NCBI GenBank assembly: GCA_973895155.1
Contig: OZ316899.1
Location: forward strand, 12,589,934 to 12,653,933
Direction: 5' to 3'
Length of the DNA: 64,000 bases
DNA from: Marsupella aquatica
Lineage: Eukaryota > Plantae > Marchantiophyta
Shown: positions 2,872 through 46,740 of the stretch, in pieces
Numbering within the stretch: the first letter of the stretch is position 1
Layout of the letters: the number at the start of each line of letters is the position of its first letter
The notes under the pieces: model-generated
What the model saw: the letters and a program-made list of their open reading frames with translations, nothing else
Told to the model about the DNA's origin: nothing
Databases searched by the model: none
Position numbers and translations under genes: made by a program

Positions 2872-2875
2872 TTTT

Positions 2876-2893: not shown

Positions 2894-2907
2894 GCATTTT
2901 CTAAGCC

Positions 2908-5398: not shown

Positions 5399-5757
5399 TG
5401 TGACGCCGCCGGTACGGCGAGTAATGAGTAATTCAGTCTGGACCGCGCTTAGCACGCACGTTAGGGGTATCTTAGGCCGCTATTATTAGCATAACGACAT
5501 TATTTAGGTAACCATTATGAGTAGGAAATCATTAGTTAATAAGGGGAAATCATGTTCTGACTGGCGGCGTGTTGCCATTCGCACGCCCGGGTTGCGAGCG
5601 TGGAGGGGCCCCTCCCTCGGGTCCGTATAACGAACTTAGGGAAGCGGCCACTGACACGCGCTGACTCAGACCGGCGGAGTGGCCGGTACACTACAAGCAT
5701 GAACGGTTCAGCCTATAGGCAACGAGGAGACGTCGGGTGATCGACAAACCCTCAAGG

Positions 5758-5765
5758 TATAAAAA
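5758..5765 (+). promoter_or_regulatory. TATA-like box upstream of the LTR-encoded ORF (C1)
   Basis: GGTATAAAAAGGG followed by a pyrimidine patch (CTCTCTCGTTCTCTCT), about 100 nt before ATG 5866. Conserved in C2 (32396-32402). Confidence 0.6.
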
Positions 5766-5865
5766 GGGAGCCGACCCTTTGTAGTGCACCAGTCCATCAA
5801 TCCACACGCCAGCTTCGACCCCAGCTCTCTCGTTCTCTCTTAGTTGCCACTGCTATCTCCTCTTA

Positions 5866-8495
5866 ATGTCGCACACGATCCTCTCCAGTTTGGCCATTCG
5901 ATTCTGGACGCAGTTCCTATCTACCGGAAGACACTTGGCTGACTCATTGAAACACGCCAACCCGCGCCAATACGAAATCGAACGCGAGTACGAGAGAGCC
6001 ATCTGCCTAGCAGGACGACACCACTATATCCTTAACTTTGACTACCCGTCTTAGAGCGAGCTTTACCGACCAGCAGAGGTATCTGGGTACTTCTTCAACG
6101 GAGACAAATATATCGGTTTCTAGGAAGCATTGCTTTGGCTTCCGGACGAGGTCTTCAATATCCTGGGTACGATCGACTTGCACCGACATCACTTCGACCA
6201 CATCCCTGCTCAGGTTCGGGCTATCATCAACAACGAGTCCAACGCTACCCGTTCGACAAGGCCGTCTGCACTTGCTTCGGAGAACTTCTACCAGCACCTG
6301 CAGAGCTTCATGGGAACTAGACCCTCAACCGCCGGCGTCGGCCCAGTCGACCCCATACCCATATCCGCACCAACGCAGACTCAGGCTCAGCTTCAGTCTC
6401 AGTCTCAGCCTCAGCCTAGCCAACCCCACCGCCGATCGCCCCGCCTGTACAAGTACGCTCCGTCATCAACGCTATGGACCTTAGCGACGACGACGAGGCT
6501 ACCCCACCCTTGCTCAGGCGGCCCAGAGGAGCAAACACTCAAGGGGCCAACACTACAGTGTCCCCTCTCCATGCTCGGACCCAAGGAGCGGCTCCAGCAG
6601 ACAACACGGTGACCGTGGCCGCCCCGGGCCCAATACTAACGGCGGTAGCACTACCTATGCCCGATCGAGAGGATGGGGAGGTGTCACCCTCCCCGAGCCA
6701 GTCACGGGGGAAGAAGAGGAAGGAACCCGCCGCTGCATCCGGGTTACCATTGGCCATGGTAGCCGCGGCCAAGGTGACAATGCACCGCATGGGGGAAAAC
6801 GTGCATAAAAACATCCTCCATCCCAAACATGCGGTGTACCTGAAGACTCAGGGATTTGAGCACCTCGCCTCTCTCCCCTGGAACACTTGCAGGTACTACG
6901 GGGAGGACATGACGGAATTTGTCAAGAATTATGATGACGCACGTCAACATACTCGGCTGCGGGGAAGGAATATGTCCCTCACGGAAGAATGGCTCAAGAT
7001 GATCTTCGGGTTACCCGAAGGTGACCACCGAGTCAAATCATGGGCTCCCGGGGGCAAGGGAGCCAAGTACCAATCCTCAAGTTTTCCCTCAGAGGGAGCA
7101 GTGGACAATGGGTTCGTGATGAGGACCTGCCTCATCCCCGAGATAGCTGAGTGACTGGAGTTCCAAAGGTATGCCCTCCACATGATGGAACCCCAGGGGG
7201 AGATCTCCGCTGCCCAGGTTATCCAGGTCGAGAACTATCGACCTAGGAAGTGCGCGTCGTACTTTGCTAAGAAATTCCATGAAGAGATGGAGCGGCGAAG
7301 AAAGACGCTATACATTGGCGGGAAGGCGTATTTCGCTAGCCACATCGAGATCATTCTCGAGTGGTACGTTCGGTTTGATCGACGAACCCTTCCCTATGTC
7401 AACGTTACAAAGCTGGTCCCAGCTAGGTGGGTTTTCCCGGCCTTGGAGAGACGGCCCCAACCCGAGGCCCGAAGTCCAGTGGACACGCAGGCTTCACCCA
7501 CCCCACCTCCACAAGTAGCTATAGTCGTGACCGAGGAGGTACCGGATGGGTCGGTAATTGCAACCGTAGATGCGATCCAACAGGCCAGGCCAAGTACAGA
7601 AGTTGGTACAACGGAGGCCTTACTCGAGCCCGGGTCTCCCAAAGACCCACCGGTGGCTATTCCGGAGAACCGGACATTGCTGCAGGAGGACACTCCAACC
7701 CCTTCCAACACTACGTCCCCAGGGCTGGATGTCACTGCCCCGGCCCCCGCGTGTGTTGACGTTTGCCCGTGCCCAACTCTGGACAGGCACAACCTGGACC
7801 ACCCGGAACTCTTCGTACCGGGTACATTTCTGAACGGCCTTCTGGGAGATTTCTCTCATCAAATTGCCCGGGATACCGGGGAGTTCATGGCCCGGAAGGT
7901 AGCCTGTTTCTTCAATCAGGAGTTGGTTGTCGTAGTAAACGCAGGCCGGGCCCAGTCAGAGGCCCTTCAGAGGATAGAGTGGTACCGGGTGGAGTCCGTA
8001 TACTTAAAGAACAAAGTTGCGGCTCAAGAGGCTGAGCTTCTACAACTACGACCCAAAGTTGCAGCCGCCGATGAGTTGTTAGCAAAGGCGCACGCCCTTA
8101 CCGCCCTAGCCAAACAGGCCAAAGCTGGGAACGAGGCCGAGATTGCACGACTCCGGAACCAGATTGACAGTTTGAAGAATCAAACTGTCATCTGGCAGAA
8201 AGACCTGGAGGATGCCGAAGAACGGGCCCAGCGGGACACTACGGAGATAGCCACGCTACAGGCCAAAGTGGCGCGGCTCCAAACCGAAGCCGAGAAGCAG
8301 GACCAGCTGGCGGGCAAGCTGACGAGCGACGCCCAGCAGCTGGAGGAGGCAGTGGAGGAGACGGACGCGGCAAAGCGAGAGAACGAATCTCTGCTGGACC
8401 AAGTCCAGCTCCTCAAGGCGGACAACGACAGACTTCGTAAGCAACGGGATGGCCGCTCCCACTCGGGCGGCTCTGGCAAGCGTGCCAGGCATTAG
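5866..8495 (+). pseudogene. LTR-encoded PMD-like + coiled-coil protein, family C (about 875 aa ancestral), broken in C1
   Basis: ORF pieces 5866..6054, 6130..6612, 6474..7154 and 7182..8495 tile the C2 ORFs 32501..34456 and 34510..35130. C1 stops (TAG 6052, TAG 6121, TGA 7152) are sense codons (CAG, TGG, CGA) in C2. Confidence 0.85.
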
Positions 8496-9407
8496 CGACA
8501 GAGTAGGAATAGAATAGGGTTAGGAATAGCTAAATCAGGCTATGGGGACAAGAACCTGCCCTAGTTAGAGCAGCACCGCCATGCTGTCCAGTCTGCGTAG
8601 GTTAGGATCTTCTAATAAGACACAGCCGTTTTTTGGCCTGACAGTCAGATTAGTTAGGACCTAAGTCAGTGAATCTTTGGGCGGGAGGACACTCCGTTCC
8701 TTGGCCCTTAGTATTTAGTGCACCCCTCGGTAGAGGCAGGGTTGGGTTTTTTTAGTCTCAGTATTGGACATCCGCGGTATGTGCGGGGAGTCCCGACCTC
8801 TGGGAGTGGAAGAGTACCAAGGGGAGGGTGTAAGACTAAGCTTATTGGGCGAGTACGGAGCCGGGTTCCATTGTAGTGTACACCCTCGACCTCGGACCTG
8901 TTCACTCCAGAGCATTCGGGTCAACTAAGTGTACGCATATGTCTCTTATGGAGTAAAATCCCTTCCCGTTATTTCCTTCGTATAAATTGAGATTTTATGC
9001 TTGTGCGTATGTATGTGTGTGAATCTCGTGTATAGGTGCCAACGCTTGGCCGAACGCACTACCCAAGTAGTGCACGAGGTGCAGCTTGCGTGTACGTGGT
9101 TGCGAGCCCGGGTTGAGCACCCATTCCACCAAAATCCGGATCGAAGGCGGACAATATGAAGGCTTAGAAGCCCTTAAGCCAGGGTCGATCTTGCTATCGA
9201 TTGAGGTACGTTCCGGCGGCGGAACACAAATCATACCTAAGAGGTGTCCGTATATGATGATAGGCGCACTTAGCGCTATTTTATGTAAGTTGGGTGCATT
9301 CCGTGCCTCCCTCCCTGCCCGAACCCTCATTTTGACAAAGGTTGTGCCTATTTAAGCCAAAGCCCGGAGTAAGGCCAAGGCTGACGACGTGACATAGCCT
9401 TTGTTTT

Positions 9408-13541: not shown

Positions 13542-16500
13542 TGTAGAGTAGGGTTTAAGGAAATATGAATTACTTTCCTCTTAAACAACTAGAATTCGTT
13601 CCCGTTAAGAGCTTGTGAGACCTAAAAGATTGTATTAATATACTTTGAGATAGTTAAGCTAACTTATCTCAGATTTTAAGCCTTTACCAACATGCTTAGG
13701 TCAGATGGAAGGAGTTTTTAATACATCCTCAGGTATTGTGATGTTTGTATCATCAACAGTGCAATAATCAATTCTAAAACTATAATAAAACAACCAAAAG
13801 CCGGAGGCGTAAAGAGAGGATTAGGCGAGCCTTAAATGTCTCATCTCCTCTTGCCACTTAGCAATCTGTGACTAAGTTAGGCATGATTAAGAGTCAACAG
13901 AGAGTCTGACAAAATTAGGCTGATGCCTAAAGCTCATCTTTAAAGCCAACCATCTAAGAATTTGTAAAAGATGCATATAAGATAGCCCGTATTAACTTTC
14001 TGACCTATGTCAAGACAAAGGTGGTACTGATTACTCCGAACTAACTTATTCTTCTATTCAATCCTTCAGATTGCTCTTTTAGGACTACGCAATTTGTGAG
14101 TTCTCGTATGGTGTTTCTTCCACTAATACTTAATAAGCCATAAGTATTCCATAGTCAACATGAATCTTTAGACCTTTGCATGGACTCAGGCATGCATTTC
14201 CAGTCAGCCTAAAGGTTAACTATGACATTGCTAGTCACTTTCCATAGATTTTCTAGCAAGAATGGTCACACACTAATGTCCAAACACAAAGCATAGATCA
14301 CCAAAATTATGAATCTATTACTTCTCTTCAAAGAAGGAGACTTTCAAAAGTGAAATGCAAGTCTGAGTAAAATGGTGGAAACTTTCCCTCTTATACTTAG
14401 GGACAAGTCTCCTCTAAACAAAAGTTGAAGAGGTATGCCCCTTCAATTCCTAACCTAAGTGTAAAAGTAAAAAGTAATGCTAAAGTCTGAAACTAGACTA
14501 TGAGATAAAGTGCTCAGCAAAAATTCAAAGTCTAATTCTTCCTATACTAAGTTTTATAGGGCTTCAAACACGAAACCGGATCAAAAACCGAGTGGGAAAC
14601 CGGATGGAAAGCCGGTTCAACTTCCGGATGGAATAACTTTTTACTCTTCAGGAGTTGAACATCAATGAAGTACTGCTTGAATAGTTGGGTCTGTACCAGG
14701 TCCTCTCCCTTGGTTTCTACTAAGGGTTCCAGGTGATCCATAGCTCTGGAAATGTTATCGAAGAGTAGTTGCTCCACTGTGGTCTTCTCCTTTGCCTTGT
14801 GCAGCAACTGTTCAAGATGATACTTCTTCTTCTCTTTCTCTAATGATTTCTCTAGCTGCTCAATCTTGACCTTGTTCTCATCTCCTTTCATCAGGTCCTC
14901 CACTTTCTTCACAAGGTCAGCAGGAGCCACACCAGTCACATGGGAGAGCCTTGAGAGCACTGGTTCCATGATTCCCATCTTGGTCTTGATGGCCGAAAGA
15001 TCCTTGAATAAACAAGAAAAATGGTGTAGGGTAGAGTGTGAAAGACCAGCTGAAGAGGTAGTAGCGCCACTCATCGGGTAGGAAACCGGGTCAGAAACCG
15101 GTTCAGAAGCCGGTTCAGTTTTGTCGAGTTTCCTCTTCTTGGTTGGCCCTACAAAGTCGATCTCTTCCGGCTCTGGGTCATCTTCAGACTCTGGTAAGCT
15201 CTGAATTTCTGGATCCAAGACTCCATATTTCACATAGCTGCTCTTGGTGCCAAATGCACTCTTCTCATGTTTGAATAAGGTTTGGTCATGAGAGTATAGA
15301 TGTACCAAGTAACAGGAGAGAGCAGTGGGGGCTCTGTTGGACAGGGCGGAGACCTGCTTCTCTAGAACACTTGAGAAGATAGTAGCCCATGATACCTCTA
15401 TGGTTTTGAAGAAGGAAGCAATGATAGTACTTCCTACTTTAAGAATCACCCTCCTTGGTTTCTCTGGATAGATGAGGGGGACTAGGAATGCCATCACGTT
15501 CCTGAGGTCCTTGTGAGTACACTGGTTGATGGTCCATCCTTCTTTGGCATCCATCTTGCCACCAAAGTATTCCACTGTGAGATTCTCTCCTCTGGGGCAG
15601 AAGCCACTCCCTTTCACTGGTAGCTGAAAAGCTTCTCCAACGAATGCCTTGGTCCAAGCTTCTGGTCGAGCTCGTGCAGTCTTCTGAAATTCTGTGGGAG
15701 GAACTCCTGCCAGCACTTCCCTTACCATGTCTTCACTCAGAAATCCCCAAGTAAGATCCATCAAGGAGGCACAGCCCATTAGTGTAAGATCTTTTCGGAG
15801 CTGTTCCTTCTCAGCTGCATCAGTAGGAATGAGGGGTCTCAAGGGCTTCATGGTGATCTGAGCCTCCTTCCTCTTTGAACGTCGTACTTCAGGCTTTACT
15901 GGAGTCCCACTCTGAGTCTTGGAAGAAGGACTGCTCTTGGCACTCTTCATACTGCCTGGTAGTTGGAGTAGCAAACAGATTTGAACCGGTGAAGGCAGAA
16001 GGTATGAGCTAGAAGTGAATATAGCCTCTATAATTACTCCGTCGCGTATATCAGCCAACCTTCTCCATCTCAGCACACTTTCAGCGAAAACAAACGTCCA
16101 GCAAGCGAGATATAGCAGAAACCGGTTCGCCACCGGTTCAGTTCCGGTTCAGAAACCGGCTCAAGCCCCGGAAGTAGACAACTATCAAAACAGGGGGCCT
16201 TAGCGCCAATCTCCACATCCCCAGCCTTCCCTCCAAGCGTAGGAGTAGGCTGCCACCTCACACGAGTCTGTCAAGGATCTCTTATACCTTTCTCTCACAG
16301 AAACTAGAATGGTCCTATAATCCGGACCCAAGATCCTCAACCGAAAGGGAAGAGCCTCCTTTCTCTACTGCTTCAACAAGCCTATTCACTCGGGAGCTCA
16401 AAACTTACTCTGTTCAGCTTTGAGAGGTGTGAGAAGAGCAAAACCGGTTCGTCCTTAAGAGGGATTCCGGCTCACTGTCAGGAGTCCAATGCTTATGGGT

Positions 16501-16793
16501 TTTCCCCAGGACGAAGAGCGTAGCCTTGGCTTCAAGAACCTGGTGTTAGATTTTCTTGATAGCGTCCGGAGACAATTTTACGGCTTCCGGTTCGTGGTCC
16601 GGTTTCCTTCTCTTTACCAAGAAATACTTTCTTCCGATTGAGCCTCTTTTCCTTCTCTTAATCTCTTGAATGGTTGTTAGACTTTCAATAATGGTTTGCT
16701 TAGCATTTAAGGTTCTTCTTTCCCGCTTCAAAGGCAAAAAAAATTTAATTTTTCCACTTTCTTTATTCCTTTCTTCTTAACCATGTTATCACA
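13542..16793 (-). repeat. 3' LTR of element B (3252 bp; carries a 362-bp internal deletion relative to the 5' LTR)
   Basis: Direct repeat of 43122-46740. Begins TGTGATAAC and ends CTCTACA on the - strand. Lacks 44240-44601 (GAA microhomology). Confidence 0.95.
14547..15950 (-). CDS. LTR-encoded PMD-like + coiled-coil protein, family B (3' LTR copy; C-terminus altered by the deletion)
   Basis: Open frame 14547..16133 with first ATG at 15950 (MKSAKSS). Motif LMGCASLMDLTW...EDMVREVL...ARARPEAWT..F.LP...EGWTINQC...VMAFL aligns with the A and C LTR proteins. Confidence 0.8.
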   Translation of the reverse strand: MKSAKSSPSSKTQSGTPVKPEVRRSKRKEAQITMKPLRPLIPTDAAEKEQLRKDLTLMGCASLMDLTWGFLSEDMVREVLAGVPPTEFQKTARARPEAWTKAFVGEAFQLPVKGSGFCPRGENLTVEYFGGKMDAKEGWTINQCTHKDLRNVMAFLVPLIYPEKPRRVILKVGSTIIASFFKTIEVSWATIFSSVLEKQVSALSNRAPTALSCYLVHLYSHDQTLFKHEKSAFGTKSSYVKYGVLDPEIQSLPESEDDPEPEEIDFVGPTKKRKLDKTEPASEPVSDPVSYPMSGATTSSAGLSHSTLHHFSCLFKDLSAIKTKMGIMEPVLSRLSHVTGVAPADLVKKVEDLMKGDENKVKIEQLEKSLEKEKKKYHLEQLLHKAKEKTTVEQLLFDNISRAMDHLEPLVETKGEDLVQTQLFKQYFIDVQLLKSKKLFHPEVEPAFHPVSHSVFDPVSCLKPYKT

Positions 16794-16804
16794 TAACCCC
16801 CTCC
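16794..16804 (-). promoter_or_regulatory. Polypurine tract of element B
   Basis: GGAGGGGGTTA between the pol stop and the TGTG start of the 3' LTR. Confidence 0.85.
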
Positions 16805-28000: not shown

Positions 28001-29681
28001 CATGCCTGGTTGCTGCATCGGCAAGTCCTCCGTCCTTGGCCTAAACACCTGCTCGATCGTAGGGCTAACAGGTGGTTGAGGCTTCTCTGCTACCGGCCTC
28101 GGTGCTGGAGCTTCCTCGGGTGCCCTTACCTGTAGGGGAAGTACTGGGGCAAAGGTCTGACCTCTGGCATACCGGCACAACAGCGGCATGTGATAGCCAA
28201 GCTGCGACACGCTCCCCATGCCGATTACCTGCTGCTCCTCCTTTAAGATCTTCTTCAATTGGTTGAGGAGGTACCCGTTGTAGTCCCGGCTTGGGTCTGG
28301 CCTCTCTGCCAGATAGACCTGTGCCTTGCCGATCTCTGCCCTCGGCAAGTTACAGTGCATGGTCACCCTCAAGAAGTCGATCATCTCTCCTATGTGCGGG
28401 TTGGTGCAGGTGTTCCGGAAGAAGCCATTCTTCGTTGATGGCCCGGGGAACGACCGGAACTCCTTGTCAGGCAAGGTCTTCCTGGTATCAACTTTGATCT
28501 TATTGCCTATCGGCAAGCCAAACACTTCGGCAATCACCTTGGGAGTAAGATAGAAATCCTTCCCATATATCCTCGTGCAATTGGTCTCGGGTTCCCATGA
28601 CCCCACGAATTCTAATAGGTCTGAATCCGGCACCTCCAGCTTCAGCCATGGTAATCTTACAAAGGCCTCTAAGCCGGATCCGGCCATGAAGCCTTGGTAC
28701 TTCTTGGTTTGCATGGTCGTAAAGCATGCATCCTCCTCCCGTGCAAAATGTAGTTGCACCTCCACCGGTAGGGTTGCCGCCCAGCCTTTCCAGGTGTCAT
28801 CCCTGGTTGGAATGGCCTTGATGGGATCGACCTCCTCCTCTTCGGCTTCTCCCTGCCTCCTGCTCTGCTGCTCGGTTGGCTTCTTTGGTGCCGCCGACCT
28901 CGTTCTTTTTGCCGGGGTGGCTTCATCGTTGATGGCTCCCTTCCTCTTCATCTCTGCTGCCGTGGAGGTTTCTCCTAGCACCGTTGCCTGGGTCCACCTT
29001 TCCGTGCTACCCTTTAATTCCCAGTGTATGTCGTTGCAGTTCTTGATGGCGTCTCGAATGCCGATGATGTTGTCTTTGCAAAATAGAAGATCGTCGAGCT
29101 GATTGGAAGTAGGAGTCCACAAGAACTCGTCCTTGATGAGTTCGCCTCCTAAGAAAGCCGTCTTCTGCAGCTCCCACAATTGAGCGAGCTCCTGCCGTTC
29201 TCGAGCTGCCCTTTCTGATTCCTCGTCCTCGTAAGTCTTGATGTACTCAGTTTCCCGTTCGAACAGGCATCCCCAGAAATGTGCCGCTTGATTGACGTTG
29301 CTCATACCCTCCTTAGGTCGATCGTCGGTATCTACTCTCTCCCCGAGTGCTTGCCTAAGCAGCTGACAGTAGTTGGCCTCCCGTAGTCGTCTGCCTAGTT
29401 CGTGCTCGCAAATGAGCCACCATTTCTTGCAAGCACTCCTTACCCCTCTCCTCTTCCGGTCCTTCCTCCCCTTGATCCTTCCTAGCCGCCGACGCTTAAC
29501 GTGCCCTAACCCTAATTGAGTTTTCACCCCCAACTTCCTTACCTCCAGCCTCGGCCCGGGTTCCATGGTCGCCCCTAATTGTTTATATTTTCCTTGTTTT
29601 GTCCCTATACTAAGGTGTTTCTAGGGTGCATTCCTGCTTTACCCACTTAACTGGCCGAGTGATTCCTGTCTAGGCATCACA
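25005..29681 (-). repeat. 3' LTR of A2 (4677 bp)
   Basis: Direct repeat of 39900-42668 apart from a 1910-bp deletion in the latter. Bounded by the TSD and the PPT. Confidence 0.95.
25922..29566 (-). CDS. LTR-encoded PMD-like + long coiled-coil protein, family A (about 1214 aa; one in-frame TAA at 27857)
   Basis: ORFs 27857..29566 and 25922..27838 are in the same frame, 18 nt apart. The A3 copy reads through (P-E-H-K-P-G-V-R-M-Y versus P-*-S-K-P-G-V-R-M-Y). Motif EFVGSWEPETNCTRIYGKDFYLTPKVIAEVFGLPIG. Heptad-rich E/K/L/R stretch. TATAAA at 29582-29587. Confidence 0.85.
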
Positions 29682-35000: not shown

Positions 35001-36026
35001 CGCGGCGAGGCGAGAGAACGAATCTCTGCTGGACCAGGTCCAGCTCCTCAAGGCGGACAATGACAGGCTTCGAAGGCAGCGGGATGGCCGCTCCCATTCG
35101 GGCGGCTCTGGCAAGCGTGCCAGGCATTAGCAGCGGAGTAGGAATAGATTAGGATTAGGACTGGCTTAGTCAGGCTCTTGGGACAGGCACCTGCCTTAGG
35201 TACAGCAGCGCTGCCGTGCTGTCCAGCCTGCGTAGATTAGGATCTTCTAATAAGACACAGCCGTTTTCCGGCCTGACTGTCAGCTTAGTTAGGACCTTAG
35301 TCAGCGAATCTTCGGCGAGAGGACACCCCGTCCCTCGCCCCTTAGTATTTAGTGCACCCCTCGGTAGAGGCAGGGGGGTTTTTAGTTGCAGAGTTGGGCG
35401 TCCGCGGTATGTGCGTGGAGTCCCGACCTCTGGGAATGAAAGAGTACCAAGGGGAGGGGGTAGGACTAAGCTCGCCGGGCGAGTGCGGAGCCGGGCTCCG
35501 TTGTAGTGTGCACCCTCGGCCTTGGACCTGTTCATTCCGGGGCTGTCAGGTCAACTAAGTGTACACATATGTTCCCTTTGTAGTAAAATCCTTTCCCATC
35601 ATTTTCCTTCGTGTAAATCGAGATTGTATGCATGTGCGCGTGTATGTGTGTGGGTTTCTCGTATATGGGTGGCAGCGCCAGGCCGAACGCACTACCCGAG
35701 ACGTGCACAGGGTGCAGCCTGCGGGTAAGTGGTTGCGAGCACGGGTTGAGGACCTGTATCATCGAATCCGGATCGAAGGCGGACAGCACGAAGGCTTAGA
35801 AGCCCTTAAGCCGGGGTTGATCCTACTATCGACTAAGGTACATTCCGGCGGCGGAACACAAACCATACCTAGGAGGTGTCCGTATTTAGCAGTATGCGCA
35901 CTTAGCGCTAGTTTACGAGAATAAGGTGCATTACGTGCTTCCCTTCCTGCCCGAACCCTCAGATTTACGAGGGATGTGCCCGTCTAAGCTGAAGTCTGAG
36001 TTAAGGCCGCAGCCGATGACGTGACA
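32037..36026 (+). mobile_element. Solo LTR of family C (C2, 3990 bp) inserted into A2 reverse transcriptase
   Basis: TGTGACG...CGTGACA flanked by TSD CCATC (32032-32036, 36027-36031). Splits RT at SFMDG|YSGYNQ. No PBS or PPT adjacent. Confidence 0.96.
32501..35130 (+). CDS. LTR-encoded PMD-like + coiled-coil protein, family C (single 1-bp frameshift near 34325)
   Basis: ORFs 32501..34456 and 34510..35130. Comparison with C1 (7690-7710) shows a 1-nt deletion. Motif QGFEHLASLPW...DMTEFVRNYD..RQHTRLQGRSMSLT.E.L.MIFELPEG. Confidence 0.85.
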
Positions 36027-39000
36027 CCATCCATGAATGAATATAGTTCATGACTGGCTACCATGTCTAGTACCATATCAGTAAAGGGTAAGGGAAAATG
36101 GTCTTTTAACGTTGCTTCATTCAGCTTCCTGTAATCCTGACAAACCCGGATCTTGGGTTTACCATCGGGTCCAGCTTTCTTGGGAACTATCACAATTGGA
36201 GACACCCAGTCTGAATGTAGGACTGGAGTGATGAATCCAGCTTCCACTAGTTTGTCGATTTCCATTTTGACCAGCAGGGAATACTTCGGGTTCATCCTTC
36301 GAATTGGTTGTCGAAATGATTTGGCTCCTAACATGAGATCAATTCGATGTTCCCCTAATGTTGGATCTACTCCCTTTAGATCTTGGTGACTCCATGCAAA
36401 CACATCCTGAAATTCAATCAATAAGTCACTGATCTCTCTCTCGAGCTCAGGTGCTAGGTTTCTCCCTAAGTTTAGTTCCCTTCCCTCTCCTAAGTTGAGC
36501 TTCCGATATTGCCGTGCTTGGATCATATTAATCTGCTTCTTCAAATTCGGGTCCAGCTCGGCGTCCAATCTCTCCAGTCTCATACCTCCATAAACTGGAA
36601 TCTCGGCTGTACTAGCCGAGTCGGTCTCTTCCTTGGTGTCCATAGATTGTCCCCTTGCCGGTTTATCCGGTTTTGAATTGGTGGTCGGCTTCCCTTCCTG
36701 CCTCGGCTCTGGATTCTGTCTGTGCATCTCATCCACCTCTTCCTCCTGAGGGTCAGTCCGCTGTGCTCTCCCGGCTTCTAATAGGGCCTCAATTTGTTCT
36801 GCCCTCGTAATCGGCTTGTATGCCGATCCCTTGGTATTTAATTCCTTGCCGATGATCGATGGCGTTGTGAACCCTGCCGGCTCTACCACAACGCCTGCAG
36901 AAAATCCACTGTCCCTGCTACTGCTCCCCACTTAGCCGTTTTATCCAATTGGTCTACATCCTTTACTTCCTCTGGAATTGCAGCTAAAAAGGTGGATTCT
37001 ATTGTAAAGCAGTCCTTGACCTCTTCGTCTTCTTCTTCCAAGTCACCTTCCATTGGTTCTTGCCATAATCCGCTGGGGGGTACCTCCGGTCCAAAGACAC
37101 TTTCTTCGGTTAGGTCAGTGAGGCATTCTAGCCAACGGACTTCATCGGCTGACTCCAGTCCACTATCGTACCCGTCTACCTCCCTGATGCTTTTCCTACG
37201 GTCATCCTTAGTGTCCCAGGATACCGTGATAGAGGGGGTCCCGAAAGTGAACTACTTTTTACCCCAATCTTCTATTACCTCGGCTAGGTATAGCCACGGC
37301 CTACCAATCAATAGCCGGAATGACGTAGGATTTACCGGCTTCATTACTACATAGTTAATGCTAAAAAAAACACCTCCTATCTCTGTCTTGATGCCGGTTA
37401 ACACTCCCGTGGGAATGACCTGATACCCATTGGCCATGTTTAGCACTCTTCCAGTCATCTCTAGTGTTAGACCCCACCCTTTTGCTATTGAATCAATCAT
37501 AATACATACCCCTGATCCTCCATCGATGGGTACCCGTAGTAATAATTCTCCTTGAATCATTAATGGTAATGCTGGGGCTCCTTGATCTTCTTCTATCATT
37601 AGTACGTCGGATCTGGTCGCTACCTTGGATAATCTCGGCTTGTCGAGAATAGCCTTCCTTAATTGCTTCCGGAAGTACGGGCTATTTTTCAATAGTTGAC
37701 CAACTGTTGCCGAGACTCTAGACTCTAGTACATCTTTAGCCAGGTCATAGGGAACAATCGGCTTCTCCTCTGGTGGTGTCTCCATCTTGGATTCGGCCTA
37801 TTTTGCCACGCTAGTCTCCACAGCTGTTGGATCCTCCAAAGCAAACAATGCTTTTGCTCGTTTCACATCCTTGGCAATGGCTTCGGTATTCTCCAGGGTT
37901 TCTAATTCTCTCAGTTGTTCCTTAACACTAGCCGTAACAGAGGGGTAGAACAACTTAGGATGATCTCGATTGAAGTCGCTATCTTGTGAAGGATTGGGTT
38001 CACTGGTGGGCTCATGGCTTACCTGTATTGCCGGAGCCCTCCCTTCTCCTTCCGTTGATGTTGACGAAGAGTCGATCTTTTCCTCCGTAACCTTCCCTTT
38101 ATTTTTGGCCAGCCCATCTCACCTTTCCTTCCTTCTGGTAGATCGAGTAGAGACCCGGTAGCAATCATGATCTAAATCCTCTTCTGAGAAGGTTGATAGG
38201 GCTTCGGCCTCATCATCAAATGGTACAAACTCTGCCTCGGCATCCTCTTGCCATCCTAGTTTGATGTGGTTGATTTGAACTCCTCCGGGGGTAGTACCTG
38301 GCGGTAAGACCTTTACTGGCAAAAGTTTATGATTTGCGGCCAGGCCTGCCACCCAAGTAGGACATTGCCCTAGCATATGACCTTCCTGTCGGCATCCCAG
38401 ACATAGCTGAGCTGGTTGTCCATCACCCTGTTTGCATGCATTCGGGCATTCTCTAGCAAAATGGCCAGGTTGACCACAATTATAGCATGCCGCAAATCTT
38501 TGCACATTCGGCCTAGGAGATACTGACGGGTTCTGAATAATCCGAGGATACATCTCTCCTGGATTGTTCCTTAATCCTGACCACATGGATGCAGGTCTGT
38601 TGGATAGGTCTCGTGCTCCAGTCTCACTGATGCCGAAAACACTATCAGCGGCATCTCCTAAAAAGTACTCTACTTCTCCCTAACATGGTCTGATCTCGGC
38701 CACATGCCGAACATGATTAGTATTAAGTTTAGGACACGCATCTTTATGGTGTCTGGTTTTATAACATAAGGCACACCATACAGAGCTATCCTCCTGTACT
38801 ACCTTCTTCTTCGGCTTTACCTCTGCAATTATAGCCTTAAGTTGCTCGATAAGGGCCACGATGTTATCTGTGGCTTAGCCTCCAGCTTGACTTTCGTCTT
38901 CCCTCTCCTTCTGCCCTTCCTTTTCCTAGTTTTTTCTTCTTCAGAACTAGAAGATGACTCACTCTTGCTACTTCCACTATCCGAGCTTGAGTTATCACTT

Positions 39001-39830
39001 CTTGACTTCTTAGAATGTTTCTTCTTCTTATCTTTTTTTTTATGGGGAGATCCCTCCTCTGATGAGGAACTCTCAGACTTAAGCTGTTTCTTCCGGCTTG
39101 TGATATCTGCATTAATGTATAATTGAATATCCTTAATTGCATCGGCTAAAGTCTCCGGGTTCTCCTTCCTAATTGCAAAACTCATCTTCTGTGGCAAAGC
39201 ATTCACCAACCATTGAAGTTGCATACCTTCAGATGCATTGGTCTTTGTACGTCTTACCAGTTTCTGAAAGCGTTGCAAGAACTTCCTGAAGGATTTGTTC
39301 TCCTTGAACCGAAGTCGTCCCAACTTCAGCACTGCTAGTTCTGAAGTTCCAATGGGTCAAAACTCCTTAACAAAGAGTGTTTTGAAGATATCCCAGATGG
39401 CTTGATCTTCCACATCTAATGCTCTGTACCAAGGCCTAGCCTCACCCTTGAACAGGCCGGGAAGAATCTGCATCTTGATGGCCGATTCTCCATTTGCTGC
39501 AGCGGTTCCCTTGAAATCATCCAACCATTCGTCCGGATCCTCATCTCCTCTCCCATGAAATGCCTTGTAATGTATGCGCGACCGTTGGCTCAGTCTGGTC
39601 CCTGGCCTCTCGTCTGGCCGTGCCTCTGGTTCCCCCATGTCGGTTGGAGACTCACTTCTCCTTACCGACTCTTCTTCTGGTATGTCTTCTTCGACGCCAC
39701 TTCCAGCTTCGGAGCTACCAGCTCTTTCTGCCCCTCTCAGTCGCTGTGTATCATGCCACTCGGCGAGCTGCTGCAGTCGAGCTCTCTCCCGTTGAATCAC
39801 TCTTTCTTCCCTCGGTGTAAGGTCAGTCAT
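36027..39830 (-). pseudogene. A2 gag-protease-RT (N-terminal part), disrupted
   Basis: Gag core, 3 CCHC knuckles, VPIDGGSGVCIM protease, LLIGRPWL, and WVSPIVIVPKK..IRVCQDYRKLN RT start. Multiple stops and frameshifts. Confidence 0.93.
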
Positions 39831-39877
39831 TACCTACGCTTCCTTTTTAACTTCATATCTCACGGCTTAAGAAATGC

Positions 39878-39895
39878 CCCCTCCATCTAGCGCCA
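39878..39895 (-). promoter_or_regulatory. Primer-binding site, tRNA-Asn type (A2)
   Basis: TGGCGCTAGATGGAGGGG on the - strand, 4 nt from the LTR end. Confidence 0.85.
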
Positions 39896-39899
39896 AAAA

Positions 39900-42668
39900 T
39901 GTGGTGCGTCCCATGGCTCCCTAAACCCAAGAAACCCCCCAGCTCAAGCCGATTCCCGCAGGTTTCGCGCTTGGCGAGGCCGTTTCCGCGGCTTAGCGGC
40001 ATGGGACGCTGCTAACCTTCTACTACTACTATTAACATTTTACACACATATACTGGACAGATCCTTCATCGGGTCATGAGATACGTAGCCGGCCTAATCT
40101 AGGCCTTCCCTTGTCTTCCCCTCCGTCTTGTTAGGTATGTTTGGTTCCGCCGCCGGAATGATCCCCAATAGGCTTGGTTAAGCCGCTAAGACCTCTCTCA
40201 GCTCGACACATCCAACTCTCACTCCCCTGCTTACTTTCCTTCCTTCTGTTGTTGATGTGGGCACTCTTCACACAAGTTAATGCGACACACAAATAGCAAA
40301 ATGACTCCTTCTGACTGAGTCATACCATGCACTTGCCATACAAACAGTACATCTCATACACAAGCTCTGCAAACTAAGCCGTGAGGCCAACTCTATTCAG
40401 CTCTTAGGCATGAGGAAACATGAATATACACAAGGGTCACTGTATGACTAACCGAGAGCTTCCCTTACTACTTGATCCCAGCCCGGCTGGTGCAAACTAA
40501 AAACTTGCTAAAGAAGAGGCCCTGAGCTCCCCGCTGCCCAGGTACTTATCCTGGTAGTGGATCCGCCTAATTCTTTGCAGCGTAAGCCTAATCTACCTAA
40601 CAGTAATCTACTTGCCCGGATCTACCTATGTACAGCAAGGCAGGAGCACAAGTGTTGCTCCTACCAGTGGAACCGCAATCCCACTAAGCTAAGTGTGAGG
40701 GCCGCTCCTGGTCCTGATCCTAATCCTAAACTTGGAGATCAGCGCCCGCCCTGCCCACTCACGCCTCCTACCTCCACGTCCGCCCTTCCTAAAAGGAACG
40801 GCGCCCTTGCACCGTCACGACACCGGTGGTGGATCCTCAATGGACACCCCCAACGCTTCCTCCTCAGCCACTGCCGTAGGTTCGTTTTCTGATAGAGTAC
40901 CTGCCCTTGACTGAGTCAACTCTCCATCGGCCTGACTGGGTCCACCATCGGCATCGGCTCGGGAATCATTCTCGGCTACGGCCTCAGCCTCGGCTATGGT
41001 CTTAGGGTTTAGGGTTGGCAAGTCTTCCTTCCTTGGCCTAAACACCTGCTCGATCGTAGGGCTAACAGGTGGTTGAGGCTTCTCTGCTACCGGCCTCGGT
41101 GCTGGAGCTTCCTCGGGTGCCCTTACCTGCAGGGGAAGTACTGGGGCAAAGGTCTGTCCTCTGGCATACCGGCACAACAGCGGCATGTGATAGCCAAGCC
41201 GCGACACGCTCCCCATGCCGATTACCTGCTGCTCCTCCTTTAAGATCTTCTTCAATTGGTTGAGGAGGTAGTCCCGGCTTGGGTCTGGCCTCTCTGCCAG
41301 ATAGACCTGTGCCTTGCCGATCTCTGCCCTCGGCAAGTTACAGTGCATGGTCACCCTCAAGAAGTCGATAATCTCTCCTATGTGCGGGTTGGTGCAGGTG
41401 TTCCGGAAGAAGCCATTCTTTGTTGATGGCCCGGGGAACGACCGTAACTCCTTGTCAGGCAAGGTCTTCCTGGTATCAACTTTGGTCTTATTGCCTATCG
41501 GCAAGCCAAACACTTCGGCAATCACCTTGGGAGTAAGATAGAAATCCTTCCCATATATCCTCGTGCAATTGGTCTCGGGTTCCCATGACCCCACGAATTC
41601 TAATAGGTCTGAATCCGATACCTCCGGCTTCAGCCATGGTAATCTTACAAAGGCCTCTAAGCCGGATCCGGCCATGAAGCCTTGGTACTTCTTGGTCTGC
41701 ACGGCCGTAAAGCATGCATCCTCCTCTCGTGCAAAATGTAGTTGCACCTCCACCGGTAGGGTTGCCGCCCAGCCTTTCCAGGTGTCATCCCTGGTTGGAA
41801 TGGCCTTGATGGGATCGACCTCCTCCTCTTCGGCTTCTCCCTGCCTCCTGCTCTGTTGCTCGGCTGGCTTCTTTGGTGCCGCCGACCTCGTTCTTTTTTC
41901 CGGGGTGGCTTCATCATTGACGGCTCCCTTCCTCTTCATCTCTGCTGCCGTGGAGGTTTCTCCTAGCACCGTTACCTGGGTCCACCTTTCCGTGCTACCC
42001 TTTAATTCCCAGTGTATGTCGTTGCAGTTCTTGATGGCGTCTTGAATGCCGATGATGTTGTCTTTGCAAAACAGAAGATCGTCGAGCTGATTGGAAGTAG
42101 GAGTCCACAAGAACTCGTCCTTGATGAGTTCGCCTCCTAAGAAAGCCGTCTTCTGCAGCTCCCACAATCGAGCGAGCTCCTGCCGTTCTCAAGTGCCCTT
42201 TCTGATTCCTCGTCCTCGTAAGTCTTGATGTACTCAGTTGCCTGTTCGAATAGGCATCCCCAGAAATGTGCCGCTTGATTGACGTTGCTCATACCCTCCT
42301 TAGGTCGATCATCGGTATCTACTCTCTCCCCGAGTGCTTGCCTAAGCAGCTGACAGTAGTTGGCCTCCCGTAGTCGTCTGCCTAGTTCGTGCTCGCAAAT
42401 GAGCCACCATTTCCTGCAAGCGCTCCTTACCCCTCTCCTCTTCCGGTCCTTCCTCCCCTTGATCCTTCCTAGCCGCCGACGCTTAACGCGCCCTAACCCT
42501 AATCGAGTTTTCACCCCCAGCTTCCTTACCTCCGGCCTCGGCCCGGGTTCCATGGTCGCCCCTAATTGTTTATATTTTCCTTGTTTTGTCCCTATACTAA
42601 GGTGTTTCTAGGGTGCATTCCTGCTTTACCCACTTAACTGGCCGAGTGATTCCTGTCTAGGCATCACA
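39900..42668 (-). repeat. 5' LTR of A2 (2769 bp), internal deletion bridged by telomeric filler
   Basis: Lacks the equivalent of 26110-28019, replaced by TAGGGTTTAGGGTT at 41003-41016. Fused ORF 40815..42167. Confidence 0.95.
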
Positions 42669-43118: not shown

Positions 43119-43121
43119 AAA

Positions 43122-46100
43122 TGTAGAGTAGGGTTTAAGGAAATATGAATTACTTTCCTCTTAAACAACCAGAATTCATTCTCGTTAAGAGCTTGTGAGA
43201 CCTAAAAGATTGTATTAATATACTTTGAGATAGTTAAGCTAACCTATCTCAGATTTTAAGCCTTTACCAACATGCTTAGGTCAGGTGGAAGGAGTTTTTA
43301 ATACATCCTCAGGTATTGTGATGTTTGTATCATCAACAGTGCAATAATCAATTCTAAAAATATAATAAAACAACCAAAAGCCGGAGGCGTAAAGAGAGGA
43401 TTAGGCGAGCCTTAAATGTCTCATCTCCTCTCGCCACTTAGCAATCTGTGACTAAGTTAGGCATGATTAAGAGTCAACAGAGAGTCTGACAAAATTAGGC
43501 TGATGCCTAAAGCTCATCTTTAAAGCCAACCATCTAAGAATTTGTAAAAGATGCATATAAGATAGCCCGTATTAACTTTCTGACCTATGTCAAGACAAAG
43601 GTGGTACTGATTACTTCGAACTAACTTATTCTTCTATTCAATCCTTCGGATTGCTCTTTTAGGACTACACAATTTGTGAGTTCTCGTATGGTGCTTCTTC
43701 CACTAATACTTAATAAGCCATAAGTATTCCATAGTCAACATGAATCTTTAGACCTTTACATGGACTCAGGCATGCATTTCCAGTCAGCCTAAAGGTTAAC
43801 TATGACATTGCTAGTCACTTTCCATAGATTTTCTAGCAAGAATGGTCACACACTAATGTCCAAACACAAAGCATAGATCACCAAAATTATGAATCTATTA
43901 CTTCTCTTCAAAGAAGGAAACTTTCAAAAGTGAAATGCAAGTCTGAGTAAAATGGTGGAAACTTTCCCTCTTATACTTAGGGACAAGTCTCCTCTAAACA
44001 AAAGTTGAAGAGGTATGCCCCTTCAATTCCTAATCTAAGTGTAAAAGTAAAAAGTAATGCTAAAGTCTGAAACTAGACTATGAGATAAAGTGCTCAGCAA
44101 AAATTCAAAGTCTAATTCTTCCTATACTAAGTTTTATAGGGCTTCAAACACGAAACAGGATCAAAAACCGGGTGGGAAACCGGATGGGAAGCCGGTTCAA
44201 CTTCCGGATGGAATAACTTTTTACTCTTCAAGAGTTGAAGTGTCAGGCTTCACCGACGTGGAGTCTACTGCTGGATCAATGGAGTTGAGAGGGTTTGGCA
44301 TGAAAGTGATACCTCCAAAGGTAATAGTAAATGGTGAGGTCGGAATGGGTGGAAAATTGGGTGTAACTGTGGTAGAAGTAATATCAGGATCAGGAGAGTC
44401 AGCCCATCCTTCTGCTGGTGTCACCTGTGGGGATGGAACAGTGACTTTCTCTGCAAATTGAGTCTGCTCCTCATCAGAAAGGTCATAGAATTTTTTCAGT
44501 TCAGCAAGGATAAGCTTGAGGGCAGAGAGGCATTCTTCCACCTTGTCACCATAGTCATGTGCAATTTGGATGACTAAGGGCATGAGAATGGGGATTGGGA
44601 ACATCTGAAGTACTGCCTGAATAGTTGGGTCTGTACCAGGTCCTCTCCCTTGGTTTCTACTAAGGGTTCCAGGTGATCCATAGCTCTGGAAATGTTATCG
44701 AAGAGTAGTTGCTCCGCTGTGGTCTTCTCCTTTGCCTTGTGCAGCAACTGTTCAAGATGATAGTTCTTCTTCTTCTTCTCTTCCTCTAATGATTTCTCTA
44801 GCTGCTCAATCTTGAACTTGTTCTCATCTCCTTTCATCAGGTCCTCCACTTTCTTCACAAGGTCAGCAGGAGCCACACCAGTCACCTGGGAGAGCCTTGA
44901 GAGCACTGGTTCCATGATTCCCATCTTGGTCTTGATGGTCGAAAGATCCTTGAATAAACAAGAAAAATGGTGTAAGGTAGAGTGTGAAAGACCGGCTGAA
45001 GAGGTAGTAGCGCCACTCATCGGGTAGGAAACCGGGTCAAAAACCGGTTCAGAAGCCGGTTCAGTTTTGTCGAGCTTCCTCTTCTTGGTTGGCCCTACAA
45101 AGTTGATCTCTTCCGGCTCTGGGTCATCTTCAGACTCTGGTAAGCTCTGAATTTCTGGATCCAAGACTCCATATTTCACATAGCTGCTCTTGGTGCCAAA
45201 TGCACTCTTCTCATGTTTGAATAAGGTTTGGTCATGAGAGTATAGATGTACCAAGTAACAGGAGAGAGCAGTGGGGGCTCTGTTGGACAGGGCGGAGACC
45301 TGCTTCTCTAGAACACTTGAGAAGATAGTAGCCCATGATACCTCTCTGGTTTTGAAGAAGGAAGCAATGATAGTACTTCCTACTTTAAGAATCACCCTCC
45401 TTGGTTTCTCTGGATAGATGAGGGGGACTAGGAATGCCATCACGTTCCTGAGGTCCTTGTGAGTACACTGGTTGATGGTCCATCCTTCTTTGGCATCCAT
45501 CTTGCCACCAAAGTATTCCACTGTGAGATTCTCTCCTCTGGGGCAGAAGCCACTCCCTTTCACTGGTAGCTGAAAAGCTTCTCCAACGAATGCCTTGGTC
45601 CAAGCTTCTGGTCGAGCTCGTGCAGTCTTCTGAAATTCTGTGGGAGGAACTCCTGCCAGCACTTCCCTTACCATGTCTTCACTCAGAAATCCCCAAGTAA
45701 GATCCATCAAGGAGGCACAGCCCATTAGTGTAAGATCTTTTCGGAGCTGTTCCTTCTCAGCTGCATCAGTAGGAATGAGGGGTCTCAAGGGCTTCATGGT
45801 GATCTGAGCCTCCTTCCTCTTTGAACATCGTACTTCAGGCTTTACTGGAGTCCCACTCTGAGTCTTGGAAGAAGGACTGCTCTTGGCACTCTTCATACTG
45901 CCTGGTAGTTGGAGTAGCAAACAGATTTGAACCGGTGAAGGCAGAAGGTAGGAGCTAGAAGTGAATATAGCCTCTATAATTACTCCGTCGCGTATATCAG
46001 CCAACCTTCTCCATCTCAGCACACTTTCAGCGAAAACAAACATCCAGCAAGCGAGATATAGCAGAAACCGGTTTGCCACCGGTTCAGTTCCAGTTCAGAA

Positions 46101-46740
46101 ACCGGCTCAAGCCCTGGAAGTAGACAACTATCAAAACAGGGGGCCTTAGCGCCAATCTCCACATCCCCAGCCTTCCTTCCAAGCGTAGGAGTAGGCTGCC
46201 ACCTCACACGAGTCTGTCAAGGATCTCTTATATCTTTCTCTCACAGAAACTAGAATGGTCCTATAATCCGGACCCAAGATCCTCAACCGGAAGGGAAGAG
46301 CCTCCTTTCTCTACTGCTTCGACAAGCCTATTCACTCGGGAGCTCAAAACTTACTCTGTTCAGCTTTGAGAGGTGTGAGAAGAGCAAAACCGGTTCGTCC
46401 TTAAGAGGGATTCCGGCTCACTGTCAGGAGTCCAATGCTTATGGGTTTTCCCCATGACAAAGAGCGTAGCCTCGGCTTCAAGAACCTGGTGTTAGATTTT
46501 CTTGATAGCGTCCGGAGACGATTTTATGGCTTCCAGTTCGTGGTCCGGTTTCCTTCTCTTTACCAAGAAATACTTTCTTCCGATTGAGCCTCTTTTCCTT
46601 CTCTTAATCTCTTGAATGGTTGTTAGACTTTCAATAATGGTTTGCTTAGCATTTAAGGTTCTTCTTTCCCGCTTCAAAGGCAAAAAAAATTAAATTTTTC
46701 CACTTTCTTTATTTCCTTTCTTCTTAACCATGTTATCACA
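43122..46740 (-). repeat. 5' LTR of element B (3619 bp)
   Basis: Direct repeat of 13542-16793. Bounded by the TSD and the PBS. Confidence 0.95.
44221..45896 (-). CDS. LTR-encoded PMD-like + coiled-coil protein, family B (5' LTR copy; frameshift near 44605)
   Basis: ORF 44574..46079 (ATG 45896) overlaps ORF 44221..44604, which supplies the C-terminus that is deleted in the 3' LTR. Confidence 0.78.

What the first reader, a model, noticed from the sequence alone, without database searches (positions are those of the whole stretch)
5399..46740. Three Gypsy families carry a large homologous gene inside their LTRs
Seen: TSDs, PBS and PPT fix the LTR boundaries at about 4.7 kb (A), 3.6 kb (B) and 4.0 kb (C). 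Each LTR contains a sense ORF of about 1214, 560-600 and 875 codons respectively, so every full element has two copies of the gene. The three LTRs show no obvious DNA similarity, yet the proteins align by eye. A: GLEAFVRLPW..DLLEFVGSWEPETNCTRIYGKDFYLTPKVIAEVFGLP..FPGPSTKNGFFRNTC..EMIDFL. C: GFEHLASLPW..DMTEFVKNYDDARQHTRLRGRNMSLTEEWLKMIFGLP..FPSEGAVDNGFVMRTC..ERLEF. B: GCASLMDLTW..DMVREVL..TARARPEAWTKAFVGEAFQLP..FGGKMDAKEGWTINQC..NVMAFL. Each is followed by a low-complexity linker and a coiled coil. Known: extra ORFs in plant Gypsy elements (Ogre ORF1, Athila env-like, Retand antisense) lie between the LTRs. LTR-encoded genes are known mainly from retroviruses (MMTV sag, lentiviral nef overlap). 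Inference: an old, selected accessory gene fixed within the LTR of a whole bryophyte lineage. I do not know a description of this architecture but cannot check the literature.
Basis: partly seen in the sequence, partly recalled or inferred. Interest (0 to 1): 0.92.

Follow-up and report, generated by a model that had tools for sequence, protein, structure and literature searches.

The report
Anti-silencing-fold gene inside retrotransposon LTRs
Three distantly related Gypsy retrotransposon families in this plant DNA (likely a liverwort) carry a large related gene inside their long terminal repeats, kept by selection in the two families where this could be measured, and its core is predicted to fold like the transposon anti-silencing protein VANC, so each terminal repeat likely makes a DNA-binding protein that would shield its own family from host silencing.

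Summary
The architecture is real. TG..CA ends, 5-bp target duplications, PBS/PPT and an empty site in 4 of 4 public runs fix LTRs of 4677 (A), 3619 (B) and 3990 bp (C), each holding a long sense ORF; every copy here is damaged. The ORFs are under purifying selection (core and coiled coil dN/dS 0.16-0.20 in A and C, like gag at 0.17). The three cores are homologous (A-C E 3e-19; B to A/C profile, probability 97%). Named relatives are from the liverworts Calypogeia and Riccia. The domain is not an orphan: the AlphaFold model of the C core (pLDDT 95) matches only VANC21 among 48,161 PDB chains (Z 8.2, next 2.4), and the Atlas points to Transposase_32, ATHILA, PMD and DUF1985. Families A and B each carry their own over-represented CG-containing word (81 vs 15; 20 vs 2.6 expected), as VANC-targeted transposons do; C shows none. 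Best reading: an LTR-borne, VANC/PMD-fold, sequence-specific anti-silencing factor that survives solo-LTR formation (function inferred, about 55%). Ten literature searches found no such LTR location in plants; this scan noted unrelated LTR-internal genes in fungi.

The parts
25005..29681 (-). Family A 3' LTR (4677 bp), PPT directly upstream at 29682-29694
25922..29305 (-). A LTR ORF, selected part from the second ATG (about 1127 codons; in-frame stop at 27857-27859 in this copy); N-terminal region, core, linker, long coiled coil, acidic tail
28133..28759 (-). A core domain (VANC/PMD-fold family), dN/dS 0.16 against A'
39900..42668 (-). Family A 5' LTR, 2769 bp, about 1.9 kb missing at 41002/41017 with a telomere-like filler; core at 41130-41747; PBS at 39899 downward; element TSD GTCCC at 25000-25004 and 42669-42673
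29682..39899 (-). A internal region: gag, zinc knuckles, protease region, RT-RH, integrase; no extra RNase H, no chromodomain hit; interrupted by the C solo LTR
46746..48565 (-). A' LTR (85% to A), 5' part; interrupted by element B; continues at 13536 downward to about 12036
43122..46740 (-). Family B 5' LTR (3619 bp); ORF 44221-45896 with a frame break near codon 441; core 45159-45797; PBS at 43121 downward; TSD TTGGT at 13537-13541 and 46741-46745
13542..16793 (-). Family B 3' LTR (3252 bp, lacks 360 bp of B5); ORF 14547-15950 open for 467 codons; core 15213-15851; PPT at 16794-16806
16794..24999 (-). B internal region: 305-codon ORF of no known family (23963-24880), gag, protease region, RT-RH-integrase
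32037..36026 (+). Family C solo LTR (3990 bp), TSD CCATC, inside A's RT; empty site seen in 4 of 4 runs
32501..35130 (+). C LTR ORF (about 875 codons, one frame break near 34320); core 33398-34030, coiled coil 34360-35127 ending in a basic motif; an uninterrupted 906-aa relative (P0074) aligns from start to end
32396..32402 (+). TATA box at LTR position 360, 105 bases before the ATG; same in C1 at 5758-5764 (promoter role inferred)
5399..9394 (+). Family C 5' LTR (3996 bp, 88.7% to the solo LTR), ORF 5866-8495 with a stop at 7152 and frame breaks; PBS and gag follow, 3' end of the element absent
44167..44197 (.). B-family AACCGG word in a 12-bp-period array, about 30 bases upstream of a TATA-like site (44130-44139); further arrays at 45031-45061, 46067-46105, 19869-19909, 23596-23625
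1776..5398 (+). Element D, a partial A-family copy (3' end of LTR, PBS, gag) into which C1 inserted; gag control dN/dS 0.17
35843..35856 (+). Short inverted-repeat word shared by the C and A LTRs 184-266 bases before the LTR end (also 9211, 25264, 40158, 2606); not more stable than shuffles

Best explanation
Three diverged non-chromovirus Gypsy families carry a related accessory gene inside their 3.6-4.7 kb LTRs, under purifying selection in the two families where it could be measured; its core is predicted to have the VANC/PMD fold, and the protein likely binds a short family-specific DNA word scattered through its own family and would thereby keep those elements out of host silencing. Shown here: LTR location, selection (A, C), homology of the three cores, fold match for the C core, family-specific CG-containing words in A and B. 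Inferred: expression from a TATA promoter near the LTR 5' end (C, probably A), nuclear import through basic motifs, oligomerisation through the coiled coil, direct binding of the word, and protection from methylation or Polycomb marks. Consequence (follows from the anatomy): both LTRs and every solo LTR carry the gene, so LTR-LTR recombination, which removes gag-pol, leaves the trans-acting gene behind.
For: Selection: C core dN/dS 0.18 (95% CI 0.09-0.36, 205 codons), C coil 0.17 (0.10-0.31, 251), shifted-frame controls 0.90-1.96; A core 0.16 (0.08-0.28, 208), A coil 0.20 (0.12-0.33, 231); gag control 0.17. Homology: A-C 27% over 232 aa, E 3e-19; B scores 24.5 bits on a profile built without B, best of 4000 shuffles 6.3; profile-profile probability 97.1, E 6e-11, 160 columns; 31 of 71 A/C relatives beat the best of 1420 shuffles on the B profile. 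Fold: C core model pLDDT 95.4; Foldseek top hit VANC21-DNA 9lnj, probability 0.94, TM 0.57, next hit 0.03; VIA-align Z 8.2, rmsd 4.0, 197 residues, next best of 48,161 chains Z 2.4. Atlas: B core to Transposase_32 in 22 of 30 hits (0.91), ATHILA 0.89; C core to PMD and DUF1985 clusters at 0.86, a lead only. Words: WWGCCG 81 in A against 14.9 (max 25 of 200 shuffles), 69 against 25.6 under synonymous-codon shuffles, top z 7.0 above the highest null 5.5; AACCGG 20 sites in B against 2.6, 12 against 0.7 in non-coding parts, in 12-bp arrays; neither is enriched in C, LINE, Copia or host DNA. Silent CpG bases inside the A word kept 28 of 30 against 76 of 101 outside, p 0.04. VANC21 binds a family-specific motif that is arrayed in tandem repeats (PMC5735166, sections 8 and 9 read). 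No membrane-spanning stretch (highest 19-residue hydropathy 1.43).
Against: Foldseek E-value 0.09 and 8-11% identity: the fold is shared but remote, and a fold shows no function. The B model was poor (pLDDT 66, one of five models) and did not find VANC21; A was not folded. No window protein hits PMD, Transposase_32, ATHILA or DUF1985 in Pfam; only 3 of 56 and 1 of 8 relatives give sub-threshold Transposase_32 hits. Family C, the one with the fold match, shows no enriched word. The A word is also mildly raised in B (15 against 7.9, 2 of 200 shuffles), is spread through coding DNA, unlike VANC21 motifs, and the B word is not significant under codon shuffles. The words were found in the same data they are tested on, one or two copies per family. 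PMD relatives in Arabidopsis also promote silencing of transposons (PMC5418596, passages), so the direction of effect is open.
Confidence: 0.55

Rival explanations
1. The protein is a nuclear or particle-associated replication helper (RNA chaperone, long strong-stop DNA synthesis, nuclear import or integration targeting, for example into other elements or centromeres); the DNA words are binding sites of host transcription factors or by-products of peptide repeats.
For: C has the gene and no detectable word. The B word also encodes a repeated short peptide in linkers and contains a core that I recall as a plant MYB site (recalled, untested). All elements here sit inside other elements of the same group. 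Long coiled coils suggest a structural role. An earlier scan note (e1-7572074, not checked) reports motif loads in fungal elements lacking the extra gene.
Against: The only solved fold match is a sequence-specific DNA-binding anti-silencing protein. The words differ between families in one host and are absent from LINE and Copia controls; 12 of 20 B sites are non-coding. The base after GCCGA in A is rarely C (22 of 144 at that position), unlike the recalled DRE core.
Confidence: 0.25
2. The protein binds the family word but acts as a Tas/Tat-like transcriptional activator or as a self-limiting repressor rather than by removing silencing marks.
For: A B-word array lies about 30 bases upstream of a TATA-like site in the B LTR; A ends in an acidic tail; PMD-C proteins act on gene expression (bioRxiv 2024.09.27.615353, passages).
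Against: Words are spread over gag and pol in A, far from any promoter, and their CpGs are better kept, which fits protection from methylation-driven decay.
Confidence: 0.15
3. The long LTRs are artefacts (segmental duplication or nested host/DNA-transposon gene) or the ORFs are neutral relics.
For: Every copy in the window is broken; B5 against B3 gives dN/dS 0.95 on 13 differences, as expected for sister LTRs of one insertion; two Riccia relatives are modelled with a Harbinger-type DDE fragment.
Against: Exact TG..CA ends with TSDs for A, B and the C solo LTR, PBS and PPT abutting the ends, empty site in 4 of 4 runs, dN/dS 0.16-0.20, an uninterrupted 906-aa relative.
Confidence: 0.05

Closest known systems
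VANC anti-silencing proteins of Arabidopsis VANDAL (Mutator-like) DNA transposons (PMC5735166; PDB 9LNJ/9LNK)
   Same: Predicted fold of the core (Z 8.2 to VANC21 residues 298-556); transposon-encoded; low-complexity variable regions and coiled coil; family-specific short words, partly in tandem arrays.
   Different: Here in LTR retrotransposons of a likely liverwort, inside the LTR; 8-11% identity; no DUF1985 Pfam hit; words contain CG and in A run through coding DNA; activity untested.
Extra ORFs of OTA Gypsy elements: Athila ORF1/Transposase_32 (PF03078, PF20167), Ogre PMD-A (PF10536), Retand Transposase_28 (PMC6317226, PMC7264820, PMC5418596, PMC11728184)
   Same: Accessory ORF of a non-chromovirus Gypsy with a PMD/Athila-like domain followed by coiled coil; sense orientation as Athila 3' ORFs.
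   Different: Those are described upstream or downstream of gag-pol in the internal region, one copy per element; here the gene lies between the LTR ends, is doubled, and stays in solo LTRs; below Pfam cut-offs.
MMTV sag and other retroviral LTR ORFs (recalled; MMTV seen only in search listings)
   Same: A protein-coding gene inside the LTR, probably with an LTR-internal promoter.
   Different: Unrelated protein; ORFs here are 560-1130 codons and fill about half to three quarters of the LTR; no infection step.
Rice Retrosat2/RIRE3/RIRE8 (PMC3485330, passages)
   Same: LTRs over 3 kb plus an extra ORF.
   Different: Their ORF0 is described upstream of gag-pol, is grass-specific, and they are a different lineage.

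Membership tests
LTR (structural definition) | Direct terminal repeats with TG..CA ends, TSD, PBS after the 5' copy, PPT before the 3' copy | tested here: met
   A and B complete; C by solo LTR with TSD, 5' LTR with PBS, and empty site
Ty3/Gypsy | RT-RH-INT order | tested here: met
   A and B; C pol is absent from the window
Non-chromovirus OTA (Athila or aRH-less Tat Z) | 5-bp TSD, no chromodomain, extra ORFs, large LTRs | tested here: met
   lineage table in supplement 5 of PMC6317226
Non-chromovirus OTA (Athila or aRH-less Tat Z) | Placement of RT/RH/INT in the REXdb tree | not testable with these tools
   No reference set on hand; Tat Z1/Z2 without aRH are reported from Marchantia (PMC10508981, PMC13468544, passages)
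Athila | PBS for tRNA-Asp or tRNA-Asn | tested here: inconclusive
   B has one PBS type, A/C/D another; their assignment to Asp and Asn is recalled, no tRNA in the window
Tat with additional RNase H (TatI-III, Ogre, Retand) | aRH domain | tested here: not met
   No second RNase H hit in A or B pol regions
Phygy / Selgy | 4-bp TSD, short elements filled by the polyprotein | tested here: not met
   5-bp TSDs and multi-kb LTRs
VANC/DUF1985-PMD fold group | Shared fold | tested here: met
   C core: Z 8.2, 197 residues, rmsd 4.0, only chain above Z 2.4 of 48,161; B model too poor; A not folded
Pfam PMD, DUF1985, Transposase_32, ATHILA | Score above the curated cut-off | tested here: not met
   No hit for window proteins; relatives reach 15-18 bits against a cut-off of 45
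VANC-type anti-silencing system | Family-specific short motif accumulated in the element, often in tandem | tested here: inconclusive
   Met for A and B, not found for C
VANC-type anti-silencing system | Sequence-specific DNA binding and loss of methylation on the cognate family | not testable with these tools
   Needs binding and methylation assays
env-like membrane protein | Transmembrane helix | tested here: not met
   Highest 19-residue Kyte-Doolittle mean 0.65-1.43 in five translated segments

The most novel reading that the evidence does not exclude
A lineage of liverwort Gypsy elements has turned the LTR into a self-contained anti-silencing cassette: promoter, VANC-fold gene and its target words in one repeat, so that solo LTRs left by host-driven deletion keep licensing the family in trans; protein and word have diverged together family by family; and the VANC/PMD/Athila-ORF1 fold was already a retrotransposon counter-defence in early land plants, which would explain the long-unexplained 'env-like' and PMD ORFs of Athila and Ogre.
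Probability: 0.35. Interest if true: 0.93.

Novelty: new variant of a known kind. Interest (0 to 1): 0.82.

Why it matters
The function of the extra ORFs of Athila, Ogre and Retand is stated as unknown in the reviews read (PMC7264820, PMC6317226), and sequence-specific anti-silencing is established for DNA transposons (VANC). This locus gives predicted protein-word pairs (A core with WWGCCG, B core with AACCGG arrays) that make the question testable with a binding assay. It bears on the open ancestry of the fold: PMC5418596 leaves the order of retrotransposon and genic PMDs open, and PMC13547354 proposes that VANC arose from MAIN-like host proteins; liverwort element-borne relatives are a missing outgroup (no tree was built here). 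The LTR location changes the evolutionary logic of solo-LTR formation, and means such families are likely mis-annotated as host genes (the Calypogeia and Riccia relatives are 'unnamed' or 'hypothetical' gene models) or missed by LTR finders with short length limits. New sequence-specific chromatin-opening proteins would also be useful epigenome tools.

Tried and rejected
No whole genome is held for the window, so no genome-wide copy survey. No RNA holder listed among 5 runs: no evidence on expression either way. Word-based homolog search with the C core found nothing among 922 candidates. Profile-profile A/C against B with only window rows was not significant (probability 0.6); it became so with relatives. 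Sequence search of PDB with the family profile found only two coiled-coil matches at E 0.5-1. BFVD gave no credible fold match. B model and its PDB search were uninformative. Two metagenome scans for DNA around relatives found none (79 and 55 pattern matches, 0 confirmed), so LTR location outside this genome is untested. Summed contig depth was higher over LTR bins than internal bins but is no copy number and was not used; none of the 15 joints shown (186 not shown) skips an LTR ORF cleanly. A second read-laying over B3/A3 gave no result. One search had one A segment in the wrong frame; it was redone; its CpG count (82 of 95 against 254 of 380) counts each pair in both directions. One search stopped at the B comparison, redone. 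The A/C shared inverted-repeat word is no more stable than shuffles (z -0.03 to -1.26). env-like reading rejected (no hydrophobic segment). U3 versus R/U5 position of the ORF could not be decided: TATA boxes lie before the ORF in C (both copies) and A, but B has its best TATA-like site at the ORF's end. Literature: ten full-text searches listed no paper on a plant retrotransposon gene inside the LTR or on VANC-like retrotransposon proteins; the VANC21 structure paper was not held, Steinbauerova 2011 was seen only as a reference, and the large element table of PMC6317226 (file 1) could not be read and may hold ORFs that lie in LTRs.
Full report
Anatomy. Self-comparison and junction reading resolve a nest of Gypsy elements. 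Element B (13542-46740, minus strand, TSD TTGGT) has LTRs of 3619 and 3252 bp, 98.2-98.4% identical, and lies in an A-family LTR (A'). Element A (25005-42668, minus, TSD GTCCC) lies in B's leader; its 3' LTR is 4677 bp and its 5' LTR lacks about 1.9 kb; loose ends at 41017 in 3 of 4 public runs read on into the stretch that the 3' LTR has there, so the loss belongs to this copy. A solo LTR of family C (32037-36026, TSD CCATC) interrupts A's RT, and contigs of 4 of 4 runs join 32031 to 36027. A second C LTR (5399-9394) is followed by a PBS and gag and sits in a partial A-family element D. All six LTRs start TG and end CA; PBS and PPT abut them. Pfam gives gag, zinc knuckle, RT, RNase H and integrase in Gypsy order, with no chromodomain and no extra RNase H. 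With 5-bp TSDs this fits Athila or the aRH-less Tat clades, not Phygy or Selgy (lineage table; passages of PMC10508981 and PMC13468544); no tree could be built. A and B pol are 54-55% identical, the gags 25-41%, so these are old, separate families.

The ORFs. Each LTR holds a long sense ORF ending 0.9-1.1 kb before the LTR end. Every copy is damaged. Codon-by-codon comparison of real copies shows selection: C2 against C1, core 0.18, coiled coil 0.17, N-terminal part 0.56, linker 0.52; A3 against A', core 0.16, coil 0.20, linker 0.31; gag of D against A 0.17. In A the 86 codons before the second ATG give 1.47 and the next 180 give 0.27, so the gene probably starts at 29305, downstream of a TATA-like site at LTR position 95. 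In C a TATA box at position 360 is the same in both copies, about 105 bases before the ATG, and an uninterrupted 906-aa relative (P0074) aligns from residue 8 to the basic C-terminal end (E 9e-86 and 4e-14). B's two LTRs differ at only 13 coding positions (0.95, uninformative); its constraint shows in 43-49% identity to five Calypogeia proteins.

Homology. A and C cores align by BLASTP; B does not. A profile of window A and C rows found 71 relatives among 1.84 billion representatives. A profile of those, built without B, scores B at 24.5 bits against a best shuffle of 6.3; the reciprocal test and hhalign agree. Of 20 relatives looked up, 5 are named Calypogeia fissa, 3 Riccia sorocarpa and 12 carry no organism; that the host is a liverwort is an inference from this.

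What the domain is. Pfam is silent for the window proteins; 3 of 56 scanned relatives (55 of the 71 hits plus P0001) and 1 of 8 more show sub-threshold Transposase_32. The Atlas gives Transposase_32 and ATHILA for B and, weakly, PMD and DUF1985 for C. The C core folds with pLDDT 95.4 on 66 sequences. Its only credible match in PDB is VANC21 bound to DNA: Foldseek probability 0.94, TM 0.57, E 0.09; VIA-align Z 8.2 over the whole model, with the next of 48,161 chains at 2.4. The tool warns that Z near 8 can be a common arrangement, but here the match stands alone and covers the whole domain. The B model was poor and gave nothing. [quoted passage not shown]

A prediction tested. VANC21 targets a family-specific motif, often in tandem arrays (PMC5735166 abstract and sections 8-9). 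Tandem-repeat output and word counts showed such words. B: AACCGG at 20 CG sites against 2.6 expected, 12 of them non-coding against 0.7, mostly in 12-bp-period arrays in the LTR, spacers and linkers, none in the core, gag or protease. A: WWGCCG 81 times against 14.9, on both strands (44 and 37), surviving synonymous-codon shuffles (69 against 25.6; best-word z 7.0 against a highest null of 5.5), with better retention of silent CpG bases (28 of 30 against 76 of 101). Against: C shows no word; the A word is mildly raised in B; the B word does not stand out under codon shuffles; A's word runs through coding DNA; copies are few. LINE, Copia and host controls show neither word.

Mechanism. The most likely reading is a nuclear, oligomeric, sequence-specific DNA-binding protein made from the LTR that marks its own family and keeps it out of silencing (0.55). 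Replication helper (0.25) and transcriptional regulator without an epigenetic step (0.15) remain; artefact or relic is nearly excluded (0.05). Whether the ORF lies in U3 or R/U5 is open: TATA sites precede it in C and A, while B's best TATA-like site follows it, just downstream of a word array. No RNA run was listed. In either case a solo LTR keeps the gene with its upstream sequence, as C2 shows.

Novelty. The parts are known separately; the reviews read place plant extra ORFs in the internal region (PMC7264820, parts 1-2 of 3 read). Ten searches listed no plant LTR-internal gene and no VANC-like retrotransposon system; subscription papers and the large REXdb table were not visible. Other papers seen as passages without a precedent: PMC3485330, PMC12885004, PMC1560396, PMC12859917, bioRxiv 2026.05.08.723830. 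Earlier notes of this scan report LTR-internal genes of other families in fungi and motif-studded fungal retrotransposons; none matches this sequence and none was checked. Verdict: a real, selected, VANC/PMD-fold gene inside the LTRs of three Gypsy families; new variant of a known kind; interest 0.82.

Noticed in passing
window 23963-24880 (-): Element B has a second extra ORF of 305 codons between PBS and gag, with no credible Pfam hit and no similarity to the LTR ORFs.
   Followed up: partly
window 41002-41016 and 12037-12054: Telomere-like 7-bp repeats sit at the deletion junction of the A 5' LTR and where the C gag region meets the A' LTR remnant; possibly repair filler.
   Followed up: no
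window 35843, 9211, 25264, 40158, 2606, about 12680: A 14-base inverted-repeat word is shared by the A, A', C and D LTRs 184-266 bases before the LTR end, although the LTRs are otherwise unalignable; a candidate packaging or strand-transfer signal.
   Followed up: partly
P0053, P0057 (Riccia sorocarpa gene models): The same domain family is modelled next to a DDE_Tnp_4 (Harbinger-type) fragment, so it may also ride DNA transposons in liverworts.
   Followed up: no
   Followed up: partly
window 1776-48565: Five insertions of this group are nested in each other (C in D, B in A', A in B, C in A), which may reflect targeting of related elements.
   Followed up: no
window 48564-48951: A further fragment of the A-family core region lies directly beside the A' LTR start.
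   Followed up: no
window 48993-52067 (+), 59458-64000 (+), 55107-55690: A LINE with RT and zf-RVT, a Copia with an open polyprotein of at least 1514 codons, and a PPR-repeat fragment; an inverted repeat pair at 53249-54238 looks like a small DNA element.
   Followed up: no
window 32037-36026 and 43122-46740: CpG observed/expected differs strongly by family: C LTRs 0.85-0.89, A 0.65, B 0.37, while 1-1775 is depleted in both CG and CHG (0.33, 0.29).
   Followed up: partly
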